A DNA stretch of 48,004 bases from Kiritimatiellia bacterium. GTDB taxonomy: Bacteria > Verrucomicrobiota > Kiritimatiellia > RFP12 > JAAYLN01. The notes beneath the pieces were generated by a model, which searched no databases, had not been told where the DNA came from, and was given only the letters and a program-made list of their open reading frames with translations. The stretch lies in contig JAFSZJ010000014.1 of assembly GCA_017458965.1 (NCBI GenBank), positions 1 to 48,004 on the forward strand, given 5' to 3'. This document shows positions 36,136 to 48,004 of the stretch, piece by piece; position 1 is the stretch's first letter, and each line of letters starts with the position of its first letter. The translations under genes and the position numbers were made by a program.

Positions 36136-36171
36136 GGCCTTAAGGTCCTTAAAGTCCTTAAGGTCCTTAAA
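36136..36171. repeat. 4 x 9-nt tandem repeat G(G/T)CCTTAA(G/A)
   Basis: ggccttaag gtccttaaa gtccttaag gtccttaaa in the rpsG-fusA spacer. It contains the palindromes CTTAAG/CCTTAAGG. Confidence 0.9.
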
Positions 36172-43300: not shown

Positions 43301-43666
43301 ATGATTCGCGAGCAGTCAAACCTCGTCGTCGCGGACAACACGGGCGCCAAGATAGCCCGTTGCTTCCGCGTCCTCGGCCAGCGCAAGGAGTTCGCCCACC
43401 TCGGCGACGTCATCCGCGTGTCCATACGCGAGGCGTCCCCGACGGGCGCGGTCAAGAAGGGCCAGGTCTGCACGGCGGTGATCATCCGCACCGCGCAGCC
43501 GATCCACCGCGCCGACGGTTCGTCCGTCAGCTTCGACCAGAACGCCTGCGTGATAGTCGACGGTAAGTTCAACCCGATCGGAACCCGCGTCTTCGGGCCT
43601 GTGGCCCGCGAGCTGCGCGATTCGGTCTGCGCGAAGGTCATCTCCCTCGCGCCGGAAGTGGTCTAG
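43301..43666 (+). CDS. rplN: 50S ribosomal protein L14
   Basis: [20 protein letters not shown] 43301 lies inside ORF 43220..43666. Confidence 0.95.
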
Positions 43667-43676
43667 GAGGAGCGGC

Positions 43677-43991
43677 ATGAGCATTGCCAGGATCAAGAAG
43701 GACGACACCGTGATGGTGATCTCCGGCGAGTACGCGGGCAAGACCGGCAAGGTCAGGTCCGTCTCCCCGAAGGACGGCACGGCCATCGTCGAGGGCGTGA
43801 ACATGCGCACCCACGCGGTGCGCCGCTCGCAGGAGAACACGGCAGGCGGCTTCGTCAAGGCCGAGGCGCCGATACGCCTCTGCAAGCTGATGCCGTACGA
43901 CCCCGACGCCAAGAAGGGCGTCCGGATAAGGCGCGTGAAGGAGGGCGACAAGTTCGTCCGCAAGTCCGCGAAGACGGGCCACGTGCTCTAG
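43677..43991 (+). CDS. rplX: 50S ribosomal protein L24
   Basis: KKDDTVMVISGEYAGKTGKV (KOW motif). Confidence 0.93.
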   Translation: MSIARIKKDDTVMVISGEYAGKTGKVRSVSPKDGTAIVEGVNMRTHAVRRSQENTAGGFVKAEAPIRLCKLMPYDPDAKKGVRIRRVKEGDKFVRKSAKTGHVL

Positions 43992-44001
43992 GAGGATATC
44001 G

Positions 44002-44544
44002 ATGGCCAATCTCAAGGATCTTTACAAGAGCGAGGTCGCCCCGGCGCTTCGCGAGAAGCTCGGCGTGACGAACCCGATGCTCGTCCCGCGCCTCACCAAG
44101 ATCGTCATCAACATGGGCTTCGGCATCGTCGAGAAGGACGTGCAGAAGAAGCTTGTGGACGAGCTCGCGGCGATAACGGGCCAGCACCCGATGCTCTGCA
44201 AGGCGCGGAAGAGCGTCTCCAACTTCAAGCTCCGCGAGGGCATGGTGGTTGGAGCCAAGGTCACTCTCCGCGGCGACCGGATGTACGAGTTCCTCGAACG
44301 CCTCACCCGCATCACGCTCCCGCGTATCCGCGACTTCCGCGGCATCCCCGGGCGCGGGTTCGACGGGCGCGGGAACTACACGTTCGGCCTCAAGGACCAG
44401 ACGACCTTCCCCGAGATCGACGCCACGCAGGTGCCGGTCGAGAAGGGCATGGACATCACGATCTGCACGACGGGCGACGACAAGTCCGCGCGTGTGCTCC
44501 TCGAGATGCTCGGCGTACCGTTCGCCGGGCGCAAGAACCGGTAG
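44002..44544 (+). CDS. rplE: 50S ribosomal protein L5
   Basis: [13 protein letters not shown]...[16 protein letters not shown]. Confidence 0.95.
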
Positions 44545-44558
44545 CGGCAGGAGGGAAT

Positions 44559-44744
44559 ATGGCTAAGACATGTCTCATAGAGAAGGCCGCACGGCCCCCG
44601 AAGTTCAGCGCACGCGGCTACACCCGCTGCTCGCGCTGCGGCCGTCCGCGCTCCGTAATCCGCAAGTTCCAGCTCTGCCGCCTGTGCTTCCGCGAACTCG
44701 CGCTGACCGGGCAGATCCCCGGCGTCACGAAGGCCTCCTGGTAG
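44559..44744 (+). CDS. rpsN: 30S ribosomal protein S14, zinc-binding 61-aa type
   Basis: [23 protein letters not shown] (CxxC...CxxC). Confidence 0.93.
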
Positions 44745-44768
44745 GCTAGGAAGGGCAGGTACCATACA

Positions 44769-45161
44769 ATGAGCATGACAGACCCGATCGCGGATATGCT
44801 CACCCGCATCCGCAACGCGCAGAAGGCCCGCCACGAGGAAGTCGAGATCCCGCTCTCGAAGATCAAGGCCGAGATGGCCCGCGTCATGAAGGAGTTCGGC
44901 TACATCTCGTCCGTCGCCGCGGATCCCGCCGCGCACACGATGACCCTCGGCCTCCGCTACACCAAGGAGGGCGAGCCCGTCATCCGCGGCCTCCGCCGCT
45001 ACAGCCGTCCCGGTCTCCGCCGCTACACGGCGGCCGCGGACATCCCGATGGTCCTCGGTGGCCTCGGGCACTCGATCATCAGCACCTCCAAGGGGGTCAT
45101 GGCCGGACGCCAGGCGCGCAAGCTCAACGTCGGCGGCGAGATCCTCTGCACGATCTGGTAG
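44769..45161 (+). CDS. rpsH: 30S ribosomal protein S8
   Basis: MTDPIADMLTRIRNA. Confidence 0.95.
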   Translation: MSMTDPIADMLTRIRNAQKARHEEVEIPLSKIKAEMARVMKEFGYISSVAADPAAHTMTLGLRYTKEGEPVIRGLRRYSRPGLRRYTAAADIPMVLGGLGHSIISTSKGVMAGRQARKLNVGGEILCTIW

Positions 45162-45194
45162 CCCCCGGGCCGCCGGCAACAAGGAACAACAGCA

Positions 45195-45734
45195 ATGTCG
45201 AAGATAGGAAAACAGCCGGTCGTCATCCCAGCCGGGGTGACCGTGACCGTTGACGGGCAGCGGCTGACCGTGAAGGGCCCCAAGGGCGAACTTTCGCGCG
45301 TCATACCCGACGGCATCACCGCGACGGTCTCCGATGGCAGGGTCGTCTACACCCGCGCGGACGACTCCCGCCCCCTGCGTAGCCTTCACGGCCTCTCCCG
45401 TACGCTCTGCGCCAACATGGTCCAGGGCGTCACGGCCGGATACAAGAAGGAACTCTCGATCGAGGGCACGGGCTTCAAGGCCCAGCTCCAGGGCCAGACG
45501 CTCCTCCTCTACCTAGGGTTCGCCTCCGCCAAGGAGTACAAGATCCCGGCCGGCATCACGGCCACCGTCAACAAGGACGGCGTGATCGTCGGCGTCGAGG
45601 GCTGCGACAAGGAGCTCGTCGGCCAGGCCGCCGCCCGCATCCGCAGCTACTACCCGGCCGAACCCTACAAGGGCAAGGGCGTCAAGTACGTCGGCGAAGT
45701 CATCCGCCGCAAGCAGGGCAAGAAGATGGCCTAG
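45195..45734 (+). CDS. rplF: 50S ribosomal protein L6
   Basis: MSKIGKQPVVIPAGVTV...YKGKGVKYVGE. Confidence 0.95.
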   Translation: MSKIGKQPVVIPAGVTVTVDGQRLTVKGPKGELSRVIPDGITATVSDGRVVYTRADDSRPLRSLHGLSRTLCANMVQGVTAGYKKELSIEGTGFKAQLQGQTLLLYLGFASAKEYKIPAGITATVNKDGVIVGVEGCDKELVGQAAARIRSYYPAEPYKGKGVKYVGEVIRRKQGKKMA

Positions 45735-45762
45735 CGCCGCCTGATAGGAGTTTCAACGCACT

Positions 45763-46131
45763 ATGAAGAACCGCATTGATCAGCGCCGCCTGCGCCACCA
45801 GCGCCTCCGTCAGAAGGTAAAGGGCACGGCCGCACGCCCCCGCATGGCCATCGCCATGTCCAACAAGAACATCAACGTCCAGTTCATCGACGACGACGCG
45901 GGCAACACCCTCGCCTCCTACTCGACCGTCGGGACCGACGCCAAGCTCAACATCGCGACCGCCAAGGACGCCGGCGCCAAGGCCGCCGAAGCCGCCCTCG
46001 CCAAGGGAATCTCCCTCGTGGTCGTCGACCGCGGCGGATTCAAGTACCACGGCCGCGTCAAGGAGCTCGTCGAGGCGGCAGTCGCCGCCGGGATCAAGAT
46101 CTCCGTCAAGAACGCAGAGGAGTCTAAGTAA
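45763..46131 (+). CDS. rplR: 50S ribosomal protein L18
   Basis: [20 protein letters not shown]...[16 protein letters not shown]. Confidence 0.93.
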
Positions 46132-46637
46132 TGGAACAGCGTGAACAGCGCGGACGCCGCGACGGCGCCGCCCCCCAGCAGGAAAACGAGTTTGACGAGC
46201 GCCTGGTCTTCATCAACCGCTGCTCGAAGGTCGTCAAGGGCGGCCGCCGCTTCAGCTTCTCCGCAGTCGTCGTCGTCGGCGACCGCGAGGGCCGCGTCGG
46301 CTTCGGCTTCGGCAAGGCCAACGAGGTCTCCGAGGCCATCCGCAAGGGCGGCGACGCCGCCCGCCGCGACATGATGACCGTCACCATGCGCGGACGCACC
46401 ATCCCGCACGAGGTCACCGGCGTCTCCGACGGCGGCCGCGTCCTCCTCAAGCCGGCGCCCGACGGCTCCGGCGTCATCTGCGGCGGCGGCATGCGCCCCG
46501 TCCTCGAGGCCGCCGGCGTCCGCGACGTCGTCGGCAAGTCGCTCGGCAGCAAGAACCGCCTCAACGTCGTCAAGGCCACCATTGAAGCCCTCAAGAAGCT
46601 CCGCTCGGCCGAGGAACTCGCGGCGGAACGCGCCTAA
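46131..46637 (+). CDS. rpsE: 30S ribosomal protein S5
   Basis: TAATG overlap with rplR; [24 protein letters not shown]. Confidence 0.95.
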
Positions 46638-46648
46638 TGACATCAAAC

Positions 46649-46671
46649 GGGCCGGGCCACGCGCCCGGCCC
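46649..46671 (+). promoter_or_regulatory. stable GC hairpin (9-bp stem GGGCCGGGC/GCCCGGCCC, 5-nt loop) in the rpsE-rplO spacer
   Basis: Perfect inverted repeat read directly, with no U-tract afterwards. The AGGAG Shine-Dalgarno of rplO follows at 46675-46679. Confidence 0.55.
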
Positions 46672-46685
46672 CACAGGAGTTTAAA

Positions 46686-47123
46686 ATGGATCTCAGCACT
46701 CTCCACAACGAACCAGGCGCCCGCCACGCCGCCAAGCGCCGCGGCCGCGGCCACGCCTCCGGCCTCGGCAAGACCGCCGGACGCGGCAACAAGGGCCAGT
46801 TCTCCCGCAAGGGCCACAAGCACAAGGACTCCTTCGAAGGCGGCCAGATGCCCCTCATCCGCCGTCTCCCGAAGCGCGGCTTCAAGAACCCCGCCCGCTG
46901 CCCGTTCTTCGGCGTCAACGTCGGGACCCTCCAGGACAAGTTCCCCGCCGGAAGCGAAGTCACCCCGTGCGCCCTCGCGGACGCCGGCCTCGCCGATGGC
47001 TGCCGCGTCAAGATCCTCGGCACGGGCGACATCTCCGTCGCCCTCACCGTGAAGGCCAACGCCTTCTCGGCCTCCGCCAAGGCCAAGATCGAGGCCGCCG
47101 GCGGCAAGTGCGAAATAATTTAG
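46686..47123 (+). CDS. rplO: 50S ribosomal protein L15
   Basis: KRRGRGHASGLGKTAGRGNKGQ. Confidence 0.95.
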   Translation: MDLSTLHNEPGARHAAKRRGRGHASGLGKTAGRGNKGQFSRKGHKHKDSFEGGQMPLIRRLPKRGFKNPARCPFFGVNVGTLQDKFPAGSEVTPCALADAGLADGCRVKILGTGDISVALTVKANAFSASAKAKIEAAGGKCEII

Positions 47124-47125
47124 GA

Positions 47126-47242
47126 GTTTGACGGTTTGACAGTTTGACAGTTTGACAGTTTTTACCGCCTGGCAGTAAACCGTCAAACCGTCAAACCGTC
47201 AAACCGTCAAACAAATAGCCGAAAACCGTCAAACTGCAAACC
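47126..47242. repeat. inverted pair of 8-nt tandem arrays: GTTTGAC(N) x4, 12-nt centre, CCGTCAAA x4, plus one more CCGTCAAA copy downstream
   Basis: Read directly. Arms 47126-47157 and 47181-47212 can pair as four 7-bp helices separated mostly by A.C mismatches, plus apical TTTAC/GTAAA pairing. It lies between the rplO stop (47123) and the secY ATG (47254). Confidence 0.9.
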
Positions 47243-47253
47243 TATTTAGAGCT

Positions 47254-48004
47254 ATGTTCGGAGCATTCGCAAACACTTTCAAGGTACCCGACCTGAGGAA
47301 GCGCATCCTCTTCACGCTCGGGCTCGTCTTCATCTGCCGCCTTGTCTCAATGGTCCCGACTCCGGGCGTAGACTGGCATGCCCTCTCGGACCTGCTCCGC
47401 GGCATCCAGGAGAACGCCGGCGCATCCGGCGGCCTCCTCGGCATGGTCAACGTCTTCAGCGGCGGCGCCATGGAGCGCTGCTCCGTCGGCACACTCGGCA
47501 TCTGGCCCTACATCAGCGCGTCAATCGTGCTGCAGCTCATGACCGCCATCATCCCCGCCCTCGAGCGCATGGCGCGCGACGGCGAGGCCGGCCGCCAGAA
47601 GCTGAACCAGTGGACCCGCTACTTCACGATCATCATCTGCGTCGGCCAGGGATTCTTCCTCGCCCGCGGCCTTGAGCACCCCGGCTTCCTCGGCCAGGGC
47701 GGACTCCAGCTCGTCGCCCATCCGGGCTTCGGGTTCGAGCTCATGACCGTCGTCGCGATGACCACCGCCTCCATGCTCGTCATGTGGCTCGGCGACCAGA
47801 TCACCGCCCGCGGCATCGGCAACGGCATCTCGCTGATCATCATGATCAACATCTGCTCGCGCGGCCCGATGGCCGTCTTCGAGGCCTACAACCGCTACTT
47901 CTCCGCGCAGAAGTCCGGCACGGTCTTCGAATTCGCCCTCCTCGTCCTCGTCGGCTTCCTCGTCTGCGCCGCGACCGTCATGCTCACGCAGGGCGTCCGC
48001 AAGG
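47254..48004 (+). CDS. secY: preprotein translocase subunit SecY, N-terminal part (3' end outside window)
   Basis: Hand translation from ATG 47254: MFGAFANTFKVPDLRKRILFTLGLVFICRLVSMVPTPGVD... The frame is open to the window end and it sits in the canonical position after rplO. Confidence 0.9.
   Translation, partial: MFGAFANTFKVPDLRKRILFTLGLVFICRLVSMVPTPGVDWHALSDLLRGIQENAGASGGLLGMVNVFSGGAMERCSVGTLGIWPYISASIVLQLMTAIIPALERMARDGEAGRQKLNQWTRYFTIIICVGQGFFLARGLEHPGFLGQGGLQLVAHPGFGFELMTVVAMTTASMLVMWLGDQITARGIGNGISLIIMINICSRGPMAVFEAYNRYFSAQKSGTVFEFALLVLVGFLVCAATVMLTQGVRK

What the first reader, a model, noticed from the sequence alone, without database searches (positions are those of the whole stretch)
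47126..47242. Hairpin of about 85 nt built from inverted tandem octamer arrays between rplO and secY
Directly after the rplO stop come four copies of GTTTGAC(G/A), a 12-nt centre, then four copies of CCGTCAAA, and one more copy 17 nt later. The arms pair as four 7-bp helices separated mostly by single A.C mismatches, which makes a long imperfect stem inside the spc operon transcript. There is no U-tract after it, so it does not look like an intrinsic terminator. The array begins inside an AGGAGTTTGAC string. That string resembles the Shine-Dalgarno contexts of rplR (AGGAGTTTCAAC) and rplO (AGGAGTTTAAA). The secY ATG at 47254 itself has no good Shine-Dalgarno. One reading is that repeat expansion displaced the ancestral secY ribosome-binding site. 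The structure might now tune secY expression or mRNA processing relative to the ribosomal protein genes.
Basis: partly seen in the sequence, partly recalled or inferred. Interest (0 to 1): 0.65.

Follow-up and report, generated by a model that had tools for sequence, protein, structure and literature searches.

The report
Gene-less repeat-armed hairpin cassette before secY
The long hairpin between the ribosomal gene rplO and secY is real. It looks like an empty copy of a small cassette, scattered through this gut bacterium's lineage, whose two arms are inverted runs of an 8-base word; close relatives carry quite different cassettes of the same build at this same spot.

Summary
A 130-nt rplO-secY spacer holds two 36-nt inverted arrays (GTTTGACR x4.6 / AAACCGTC x4.5, 92% complementary). 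The RNA fold is -55.5 kcal/mol, z = -5.9.

It is not a private regulator of secY.
- The organism is a ruminant-gut Kiritimatiellia.
- GTDB relatives at 54-80% SecY identity have 6-72-nt spacers without arrays.
- Contigs of the same 90% RplO cluster carry at least five unrelated spacer alleles, 62-253 nt long. Each is built from inverted 7-8-nt arrays.
- Alleles B-D are preceded by a hairpin made from an inverted copy of the rplO 3' end. That hairpin keeps pairing through three compensatory changes.
- The GTTTGACR unit is dispersed: at least 120 metagenome loci hold it.
- In the sample that also holds the window's allele, nearly identical arms enclose a PF05635 gene ("23S rRNA intervening-sequence protein") between sctL and sctN.

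My reading is that this is a gene-less member of that cassette family sitting in an insertion-prone, hypervariable spacer. As RNA it makes a long stem that is a plausible RNase III substrate, and it leaves the secY start region open.

The displaced Shine-Dalgarno idea has little comparative support, and transcript ends could not be tested.

The parts
46686..47123 (+). rplO (ribosomal protein L15, 145 aa). Its last three sense codons (GAA ATA ATT) differ from the GAA GTC ATC of alleles B/C and are linked to this spacer allele.
   Evidence: ORF. Pfam Ribosomal_L27A on the identical product. Allele-linked differences at 3, 6 and 8 nt before the end of the stop.
47122..47126 (+). AGGAG overlapping the rplO stop codon. 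It is Shine-Dalgarno-like, lies 128 nt upstream of the secY ATG, and directly abuts the first repeat unit.
   Evidence: Sequence. It is absent from alleles B-E.
47126..47161 (+). 5' arm: GTTTGACG GTTTGACA GTTTGACA GTTTGACA GTTT.
   Evidence: It matches 34 of 36 positions of the 5' arm of the PF05635 cassette in L128.
47162..47176 (+). Loop TTACCGCCTGGCAGT. Its 3' half (GGCAGT, then AAA) resembles the GGGCAGCAA that precedes the terminal four units of the full cassette in L251.
47177..47212 (+). 3' arm: AAA (CCGTCAAA)x4 C.
   Evidence: It is 100% identical over 35 nt to the 3' arm of L128 and to many other loci. Contig depth over it is about 50-fold or more (up to several hundred-fold) above the flanks in four metagenomes.
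47213..47253 (+). A/C-rich tail and secY leader: AAATAGCCGAAAA, one more CCGTCAAA (47226-47233), then CTGCAAACCTATTTAGAGCT with only a weak AGAG before the ATG.
   Evidence: family D1. The region is mostly unpaired in the ensemble.
47113..47247 (+). Outer imperfect inverted repeat (47113-47137 with 47223-47247, 84% complementary). It would enclose the whole element, including the rplO stop. The nested fold is only 3.7 kcal/mol above the minimum free energy, and it is the minimum-energy fold in the variant with one unit fewer.
   Evidence: I4; A2_L221.
47254..48003 (+). secY, 5' part (250 aa, running off the window). The start is conserved with relatives (MFGAFANTFK against MLGAFANTLK).
   Evidence: Pfam SecY on the full-length gene in L081.

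Best explanation
The hairpin is a gene-less member of a dispersed family of small cassettes found in this Kiritimatiellia lineage. I infer that it is either an empty shell or a deletion derivative of a full copy.

Each cassette has two arms made of inverted tandem arrays of a 7-8-nt unit. Between the arms lies one of three things: a short loop, a GC-rich hairpin, or a small gene of Pfam family PF05635 (23S rRNA intervening-sequence protein, Avd-like four-helix bundle). The cassettes sit just after the stop codon of one gene and run up to the start codon of the next.

The rplO-secY junction in this species cluster is a tolerant, hypervariable site. It has been filled repeatedly with such cassettes built from different units. 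Slippage changes their copy number. Template switching or conversion would keep the two arms matched (inferred).

On the spc-operon transcript the element must be read through, because secY has no promoter-like site of its own in the spacer. It folds into a stem of about 36 bp weakened by three A.C mismatches. By analogy with 23S rRNA intervening sequences, this stem is a likely RNase III substrate. Cleavage would separate the ribosomal-protein message from secY. The A/C-rich tail leaves the secY start accessible.

Shown here: the anatomy, the dispersal of the unit, the allelic replacement at this site, and full cassettes with the same arms. Inferred: derivation from a full cassette, any mobility mechanism, RNase III cleavage, and any effect on the SecY to ribosomal-protein ratio.
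For: - Structure and repeats.
- Lineage-specific gain: relatives L001-L005 have 6-72-nt spacers without arrays.
- Alleles: five types with unrelated units but the same build, in contigs whose rplO and secY are 93-99.8% identical to the window. All alleles that were folded (A-D) score z = -4.5 to -8.1.
- Controls: the neighbouring rpsE-rplO spacer is conserved in the same contigs.
- Dispersal: at least 120 metagenome loci hold (GTTTGACR)>=3. Contig depth over the 3' arm is about 50-fold or more above the flanks.
- Same unit as hairpin arms elsewhere: L101, L109, L167 and L174.
- Full cassettes with the same arms round a PF05635 ORF (Pfam E = 1.8e-22): L128 and L192, and L251 and L252 between sctL and sctN, from the sample that also yielded the window-type contig L081.
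- Arm identity to L128 is 34/36 and 35/35, with four units on each side, a stop codon abutting the first unit, and a shared GGCAG-YAA motif before the terminal four units.
- A second cassette family from the same samples has the architecture of alleles B-D plus the gene. It runs: hairpin from an inverted copy of the upstream gene's 3' end, then (GTCTGATG)n, then PF05635, then (GACCATNN)n, then the ATG of the next gene.
- Close PF05635 homologues are named as Kiritimatiellae proteins.
- Slippage is visible in variants one unit shorter (L221) and in allele C lengths of 157-253 nt.
- 23S rRNA intervening sequences have terminal inverted repeats forming a stem of about 28 bp that RNase III cuts (PMC4990558).
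Against: - No PF05635 gene lies in this copy, or anywhere in the 48-kb window. No rplO-secY allele carrying the gene was found among the cluster members examined.
- Most GTTTGACR arrays (about 70-80%) are single-orientation arrays followed by blocks of other units, not hairpins. Arrays therefore need not come from cassettes.
- The similarity of low-complexity arms could be overrated as homology.
- No target-site signature, transposase or other mobility function was identified.
- The three mismatches are A.C in the sense RNA but G.U in the antisense RNA. That is not what selection for a sense-RNA stem would predict.
- Metagenome contigs may be strain chimeras, so the linkage of alleles to distant flanks is uncertain.
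Confidence: 0.6

Rival explanations
1. Purely local origin with no cassette. Replication slippage amplified short words of the ancestral spacer. Intrastrand template switching (quasipalindrome correction) then copied them onto the other arm. The result is a neutral, fast-evolving hairpin with no mobility and no function.
For: - Copy-number variants exist.
- Hairpins that are exact inverted copies of the adjacent gene 3' end look like fold-back template switches. This mechanism is established in E. coli (PMC7202029).
- The short spacer of outgroup L004 (CCAAGAACCCGGAAACTGGGGAAG) resembles seed units of allele C.
- Arrays also invade coding DNA in copA, which suggests strong mutational pressure.
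Against: - The same 8-nt unit, with the same 4+4 copy arrangement, the same A/G pattern and the same GGCAG-YAA junction, occurs in an unrelated operon round a PF05635 gene and at 120 or more other loci.
- Independent slippage would amplify different local words at each locus.
Confidence: 0.2
2. A selected intercistronic regulator of the spc operon. In this reading the stem is kept because it sets the SecY to ribosomal-protein ratio, acting as a partial terminator, an RNase III processing site or a 3'-exonuclease barrier that stabilises the upstream message. The sequence is free to change so long as the hairpin is kept.
For: - Every allele at this site forms a hairpin, whereas only about 11% of arrays elsewhere have an inverted partner within 200 nt.
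- Three compensatory double changes keep the stop-codon hairpin paired between allele D and alleles B/C.
- Allele A is identical over 207 nt in contigs whose adjacent flanks differ by about 8-15%.
- The more distant relative L005 also has a GC-rich inverted repeat followed by T5 in this spacer.
- From my own knowledge, the E. coli rplL-rpoB spacer combines an attenuator with an RNase III site.
Against: - Relatives at 72-80% SecY identity do without any such structure.
- Allele E has only a 14-bp stem.
- There is no U-tract and no terminator call.
- The mismatches disfavour the sense-RNA stem.
- The secY start is not occluded.
- Compensatory changes and arm matching are also what templated correction produces.
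- The identity of allele A across diverged flanks can be explained by recombination or by chimeric assembly.
Confidence: 0.15
3. A DNA-level signal: an iteron-like array of binding sites for a DNA-binding protein, or an internal or antisense promoter, since the unit contains TTGACA/TTGACG.
For: The unit contains the sigma-70 -35 hexamer TTGACA. On the minus strand TTGACG is followed 16 nt later by TAAAAA.
Against: - The promoter scan found nothing on either strand in 46600-47400.
- The 8-bp period is out of helical phase.
- The other alleles at this site have no TTGACA-like unit.
Confidence: 0.03

Closest known systems
Convergent pairs of tandem heptamer arrays in Xanthomonas (GGGAATC; Rehm et al. 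2015, PMC4692102)
   Same: Two tandem arrays of a 7-nt unit lie close together on opposite strands in intergenic DNA. There are 70-75 such pairs per genome. The type (single array or inverted pair) is usually preserved between species while copy number changes. Stem-loop potential is noted in the paper.
   Different: The unit here is 8 nt, A/T-richer and has no G-quadruplex potential. Several unit families share one site as alleles. I could link the arms to PF05635 cassettes, a link that none of my terms (inverted, hairpin, intervening, terminator, palindrom) turned up in that paper.
Intervening sequences (IVS) of 23S rRNA, with or without the S23p/PF05635 ORF (Coxiella, Leptospira, Salmonella; PMC4990558)
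   Same: A small insertion into a highly transcribed, essential RNA. Terminal inverted repeats form a long stem of about 28 bp. The interior is either a PF05635 gene or nothing. In those cases the stem is cut by RNase III.
   Different: This element lies in an mRNA spacer, not in 23S rRNA helix 25 or 45. Its arms are tandem arrays of a short unit. Cleavage here is untested.
Long simple sequence repeats of 5-11 nt, cyanobacterial STRR heptamers and Beggiatoaceae TAACTGA repeats (Mrazek 2007 as summarised in PMC4679880; MacGregor 2015)
   Same: Many intergenic tandem arrays of 7-8-nt units, often immediately upstream of start codons. They occur inside ribosomal-protein operons as well, for example before fusA, frequently without a canonical ribosome-binding site. 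Their function is unknown.
   Different: In Maribeggiatoa 169 sets are direct repeats and only one is indirect. Here the arrays are inverted and form a hairpin. The lineage uses a vocabulary of many units, and the locus is multi-allelic.
REP/BIME elements of enterobacteria (from my own knowledge)
   Same: Dispersed, hairpin-forming, intercistronic or 3'-located elements. They vary between strains and can stabilise upstream mRNA or attenuate transcription.
   Different: REPs are imperfect palindromes of about 35 nt mobilised by RAYT transposases. They are not tandem arrays of 7-8-nt units.

Membership tests
Inverted tandem-array hairpin cassettes (with or without a PF05635 gene) | Two arms made of tandem 6-9-nt units in inverted orientation that fold into a long stem | tested here: met
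   36-nt arms, 92% complementary, z = -5.9.
Inverted tandem-array hairpin cassettes (with or without a PF05635 gene) | The same arm unit is present at other, unrelated loci (a dispersed family) | tested here: met
   At least 120 metagenome loci hold the unit. Contig depth over the arm is about 50-fold or more above the flanks. L101, L109, L167 and L174 are hairpins with the same 5' unit.
Inverted tandem-array hairpin cassettes (with or without a PF05635 gene) | Full members with the same arms enclose a PF05635 gene | tested here: met
   L128, L192, L251 and L252 do. The arms match at 34/36 and 35/35.
Inverted tandem-array hairpin cassettes (with or without a PF05635 gene) | This copy itself carries the PF05635 gene | tested here: not met
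   The loop is 15 nt, and tblastn finds no PF05635 relative in the window. The copy is filed as a gene-less member.
Inverted tandem-array hairpin cassettes (with or without a PF05635 gene) | Presence/absence or replacement polymorphism at the orthologous site | tested here: met
   Relatives lack it. Alleles B-E replace it.
Inverted tandem-array hairpin cassettes (with or without a PF05635 gene) | A defined mobility mechanism or target-site signature | not testable with these tools
   No filled and empty pair with homologous flanks inside the spacer was available.
23S rRNA intervening sequences | Inserted in 23S rRNA (helix 25 or 45) | tested here: not met
   It lies between rplO and secY. There is no rRNA or any other Rfam match in the window.
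23S rRNA intervening sequences | Excision by RNase III within the terminal stem | not testable with these tools
   Only assembled contigs of RNA runs were available, and they break at the repeats.
Long simple sequence repeats / STRR-type arrays | Tandem arrays of a 5-11-nt unit, at least 3 copies, at many mostly intergenic loci in one genome | tested here: met
   TRF lists about a dozen 7-9-nt arrays in 48 kb. There are 219 arrays in 340 kb of related high-GC loci.
Intrinsic (Rho-independent) terminator | GC-rich stem directly followed by a U-tract | tested here: not met
   No terminator call was made at the element. The stem is followed by AAAUAGCCGAAAA.
Known structured RNA families (r-protein leaders, riboswitches and others) | A match to an Rfam covariance model at the gathering score | tested here: not met
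   There are 0 matches in the whole window.

The most novel reading that the evidence does not exclude
The heptamer and octamer arrays of this lineage, and perhaps of many bacteria, could be the arms and relics of one undescribed class of very small cassettes. In this reading the cassettes insert directly after stop codons inside operons. On insertion they create an inverted copy of the upstream gene's 3' end. They carry, or have lost, an Avd-like PF05635 gene. They are exchanged at hot spots such as rplO-secY, and they behave as intervening sequences of mRNAs that RNase III cuts out or cuts apart.
Probability: 0.3. Interest if true: 0.85.

Novelty: new variant of a known kind. Interest (0 to 1): 0.62.

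Why it matters
Short tandem 7-8-nt repeats have been known in bacterial genomes since the cyanobacterial STRRs, and no mechanism or function has been assigned to them. This locus offers a clean natural experiment. One essential, highly expressed operon junction in one species cluster carries at least five unrelated alleles of the same hairpin architecture. Full, gene-bearing cassettes with the same arms occur in the same samples.

The locus makes three questions directly testable:
- whether such arrays are relics of a small mobile cassette that carries a PF05635/Avd-like gene;
- how the inverted copy of the upstream gene's 3' end arises;
- whether long repeat-armed stems inside mRNAs are processed by RNase III, as 23S rRNA intervening sequences are.

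There is also a practical point for annotation. Spacers of this kind break short-read assemblies and can extend or truncate gene calls. One deposited genome has RplO extended by 8 residues into the array.

Tried and rejected
I could not count arrays, hairpins or PF05635 genes in the window's own genome, nor check for rnc, mutS or mutL.
- Rfam: no match in the window.
- Promoter or terminator at the element: none found.
- Occlusion of the secY ribosome-binding site: rejected, because the region stays mostly unpaired in all alleles.
- A split Shine-Dalgarno brought close to the start by the hairpin: rejected, because 41 nt remain between the stem and the ATG, and the outer pairing would sequester AGGAG.
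- Transcript ends and coverage: four RNA runs were laid, but they are assembled contigs that break at the arrays, as DNA contigs do. One contig from a run whose RNA origin is uncertain (X28, 47183-47390) joins the 3' arm to secY. No conclusion on processing is possible.
- Orientation bias of arrays relative to start codons: my crude GC3-based gene calls gave 14 A/C-rich against 7 G/T-rich arrays within 30 nt of starts. This is suggestive only.
- Terminator in the L005 spacer: the GC-rich inverted repeat plus T5 seen by eye did not pass the scan.
- A PF05635-bearing allele at rplO-secY: not found among the nine RplO cluster members looked up.
- Sense against antisense stability: the antisense strand folds better in alleles A-D, but G/U-rich strands fold better in general, so this is not decisive.
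- Literature: no paper combining Kiritimatiellae with tandem repeats was found.

Full report
**1. The observation**

rplO (46686-47123, stop TAG) and secY (ATG at 47254) are separated by 130 nt. Every other spacer I could read in the S10-spc cluster is 48 nt or less by my rough gene calls. The rpsG-fusA spacer in the str cluster upstream is 74 nt.

The spacer holds GTTTGACG GTTTGACA GTTTGACA GTTTGACA GTTT (47126-47161), a 15-nt centre, and AAA (CCGTCAAA)x4 C (47177-47212). A further CCGTCAAA lies at 47226-47233.
- The tools give 36-nt arms at 92% complementarity.
- TRF gives period 8 with 4.6 and 4.5 copies.
- The unit pair matches 6 times against 0.06 expected from shuffles.
- The RNA fold is -55.5 kcal/mol, z = -5.9 against dinucleotide shuffles. 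As DNA, z = -6.1.

The stem is 15+7+7+4 bp with three A.C mismatches. It is the best inverted repeat in the window. No Rfam family matches anywhere in the window. No promoter-like or terminator-like site is called at the element.

**2. Whose genome, and what relatives have**

SecY places the window in Kiritimatiellia. Sequencing runs that hold the stretch are bovine, sheep and other gut metagenomes from more than a dozen studies.

The five closest species representatives in GTDB have 54-80% SecY identity. Their rplO-secY spacers are 6-72 nt long and have no arrays. Four of the five have a GGAG/GGGGAA/AAGAG-type Shine-Dalgarno at normal spacing. The element is therefore a recent gain.

**3. A hypervariable site with a conserved build**

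I looked up contigs that encode RplO proteins of the same 90% cluster. At least five spacer types appeared.

| Allele | Spacer length | Arms and features |
|---|---|---|
| A (window type) | 130 nt | GTTTGACR / YGTCAAAC arms. One variant is a unit shorter (122 nt, L221). One has the stop mutated to GAG, so RplO runs 8 codons into the array (L224). |
| B | 175 nt | GTTAGTY / RACTAAC arms, then a CCACTAA tail |
| C | 157, 168, 199 or 253 nt | AGTTCYY / GAACYRG arms, with a long GAACYRG tail |
| D | 187 or 192 nt | TAGTTCT / AACTAGN arms |
| E | 62 nt | Two TTCTAGG-type units per arm, and a good GGAG |

The folded alleles A-D give z = -4.5 to -8.1.

Alleles B, C and D begin with a hairpin (H1) whose 5' arm is the last 12-21 nt of rplO including the stop, and whose 3' arm is its inverted copy. 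Between allele D and alleles B/C, three synonymous third-position changes in rplO are each matched by the complementary change in the copy. That gives 3 pairs changed on both sides and 93.7% of cells paired, and only 3 of 500 shuffles reach this.

Two controls come from the same set of assemblies. The 48-nt rpsE-rplO spacer with its GC hairpin is conserved apart from a few point changes. The rpsG-fusA array is stable.

The flanking genes of the different alleles are 93-99.8% identical to the window. Alleles do not track flanks.
- Allele A is identical over 207 nt in contigs whose adjacent sequence differs by about 8-15%.
- One secY 5' haplotype occurs with alleles A, C and D.

This pattern means either recombination or strain-chimeric assembly. 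I cannot tell which.

**4. The unit is dispersed and belongs to a vocabulary**

When contigs of four DNA runs are laid on the locus, depth over the 3' arm is about 50-fold or more above the flanks, up to several hundred-fold. Many different flanking sequences are attached to it.

In the GC-rich contigs the arrays have these properties:
- They fill the space between a stop codon and the next start codon.
- They often begin right after a GC-rich hairpin.
- They are followed by blocks of other units (GTTCCCC, GAACCAG, CCACTRA, CGACTAA, GCATTSW, CTATCTN).

Several of those units also occur in the window and in alleles B-D. One such contig carries an orthologue of a window gene at 78% nucleotide identity.

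About 11% of arrays have an inverted partner within 200 nt. These form composite modules: a GC hairpin that is often an inverted copy of the upstream gene's 3' end, then the array hairpin, and sometimes a second GC hairpin. Of 125 GTTTGACR arrays, 25 pair mostly with a downstream partner and 10 with an upstream one. L101, L109, L167 and L174 are clear relatives of the window hairpin, with a short loop or a GC hairpin as the centre.

**5. The link to PF05635 cassettes**

[quoted passage not shown] I tested this on the material fetched here.

L128 has TAG directly followed by (GTTTGACR)x4, then an ORF, then (CCGTCAAA)x4 CCATATC and the ATG of a type III secretion ATPase. The ORF matches Pfam PF05635 at E = 1.8e-22, covering profile positions 1-70 of 106, so it is truncated.

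L192, L251 and L252 hold the full-length gene in the same place, between sctL and sctN. L252 comes from the very sample that yielded the window-type contig L081.

The arms match the window closely.
- The 5' arm is 34/36 identical and the 3' arm 35/35.
- Both have four units per side.
- Both have A in some 5'-arm units opposite C in the 3' arm.
- The window's ...TGGCAGTAAA(CCGTCAAA)4C parallels L251's ...GGGCAGCAA(CCGTCAAA)4C.

A second cassette from the same samples lies between a histidine kinase gene and an Hpt gene. It runs CCCACCGCGCGG-TAAC-CCGCGCGGTGGG (H1, containing the stop), then (GTCTGATG)n, then PF05635, then (GACCATNN)n, then the ATG. This is the build of alleles B-D with the gene in the loop. 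L133 and L141 show the same arrangement with other units.

Close homologues of the protein are numerous, and some are named four helix bundle protein [Kiritimatiellae bacterium]. PF05635 is the family of the S23p ORFs of 23S rRNA intervening sequences and resembles the Avd protein of diversity-generating retroelements (PMC4990558 and PMC10053308).

**6. How it most likely works**

Shown:
- The element is a gene-less copy with the arms of a gene-bearing cassette family.
- The site is repeatedly occupied by cassettes of different units.
- Copy number slips.

Inferred:
- The copy derives from, or is the empty form of, such a cassette.
- The arms are kept matched by templated correction. Quasipalindrome template switching is an established mechanism (PMC7202029).

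On the RNA side, secY has no promoter-like site in the spacer and is essential in studied bacteria. Transcription must therefore read through, and the element cannot be a strong terminator. The secY initiation region stays largely unpaired in all alleles, so the hairpin does not act by occlusion.

A stem of about 36 bp is the kind of structure RNase III cuts in 23S rRNA intervening sequences, where the stem is about 28 bp (PMC4990558). Cleavage would uncouple the fate of the ribosomal-protein message from that of secY. This step is inference only.

One point counts against selection on the sense RNA. The three mismatches are A.C in the sense strand and would be G.U in the antisense strand, which folds into an uninterrupted 41-bp stem (-73.3 kcal/mol). 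The mismatches may simply keep the sense stem passable.

**7.

- Long stem, not a terminator, and a lineage-specific gain: supported.
- Repeat expansion displaced the ancestral secY ribosome-binding site: AGGAGTTT does recur before rplR and rplO. But alleles B-E and three of four close outgroups have no AGGAG at the rplO stop. This idea remains possible but has little support.
- Tuning of secY expression or mRNA processing: plausible, untested.

The RNA runs were available only as contigs, which break at the arrays just as DNA contigs do.

**8. Comparison with what is known**

Convergent pairs of tandem heptamers are published for Xanthomonas (PMC4692102). Intergenic heptamer arrays before start codons, including inside ribosomal-protein operons, are published for Beggiatoaceae, with cyanobacterial heptamer repeats and the 5-11-nt repeat survey as background (PMC4679880). 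Intervening sequences with terminal inverted repeats and a PF05635 ORF are published for 23S rRNA (PMC4990558).

The following appear to be new here:
- the use of tandem-array arms by PF05635 cassettes in mRNA spacers;
- the multi-allelic replacement at one essential operon junction;
- the inverted copy of the upstream gene's 3' end.

Other agents of this scan have reported similar cassettes in other phyla. I treat those notes as leads, which I checked only on my own loci.

**9. Limits**

All relatives are metagenome contigs. The low-complexity arms make homology claims softer than for ordinary sequence. No experiment supports any RNA-level effect.

Noticed in passing
window 36138-36170 (rpsG-fusA spacer): Four copies of CCTTAAGGT/CCTTAAAGT, a self-complementary unit, lie between rpsG and fusA. 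Unlike the rplO-secY spacer, this array is conserved between two strain groups whose downstream spacer halves differ.
   Followed up: partly
The unit CTTTCAA recurs at 630-655, directly abutting the ATG at 656.
   Followed up: no
window 46638-46685 (rpsE-rplO spacer): A 9-bp all-GC hairpin, GGGCCGGGC-CACGC-GCCCGGCCC, sits between rpsE and rplO. It is conserved in all strain contigs, with changes mainly in the loop.
   Followed up: partly
L224 (GCA_017449165.1), rplO stop: A TAG to GAG change lets RplO read 8 extra codons (EEFDGLTV) into the array until a TGA inside a repeat unit. The arrays carry stops in all frames.
   Followed up: yes
L251/L252 59-460 and 3001-3513: Two PF05635 genes sit in one type III secretion operon, one upstream of sctJ and one between sctL and sctN. 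The first follows an array of GTTTAGTC/GTTTATTC-type units; the second has GTTTGACR arms. The number of 5'-arm units differs between the two contigs, 4 against 2.
   Followed up: partly
L083 against window 43362-48004: This contig is identical to the window from about 46400 onward but only about 80-85% identical upstream. It is either a recombinant or a strain-chimeric assembly.
   Followed up: no
L081 6569-12438; L216 4454-5438: secY seems to be the last gene of the operon here. It is followed by a strain-variable region (a small unknown gene, an N6/N4 methyltransferase, a nucleotidyltransferase) instead of the usual adk-map-infA-rpmJ genes.
   Followed up: no
L005 3929-4000: The rplO-secY spacer of this more distant Kiritimatiellia (72 nt) holds a GC-rich inverted repeat followed 3 nt later by TTTTT. 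The simple terminator scan did not call it.
   Followed up: partly
L136 6020-6190; L091 5400-5580; L150 2050-2175: These are composite modules: a perfect GC hairpin (in L136 an inverted copy of the upstream gene's 3' end with its stop), then an inverted-array hairpin, then in L136 and L091 a second GC hairpin. L136 lies between convergent genes by my rough gene calls; L091 and L150 fall inside long called ORFs that may be over-extended.
   Followed up: partly
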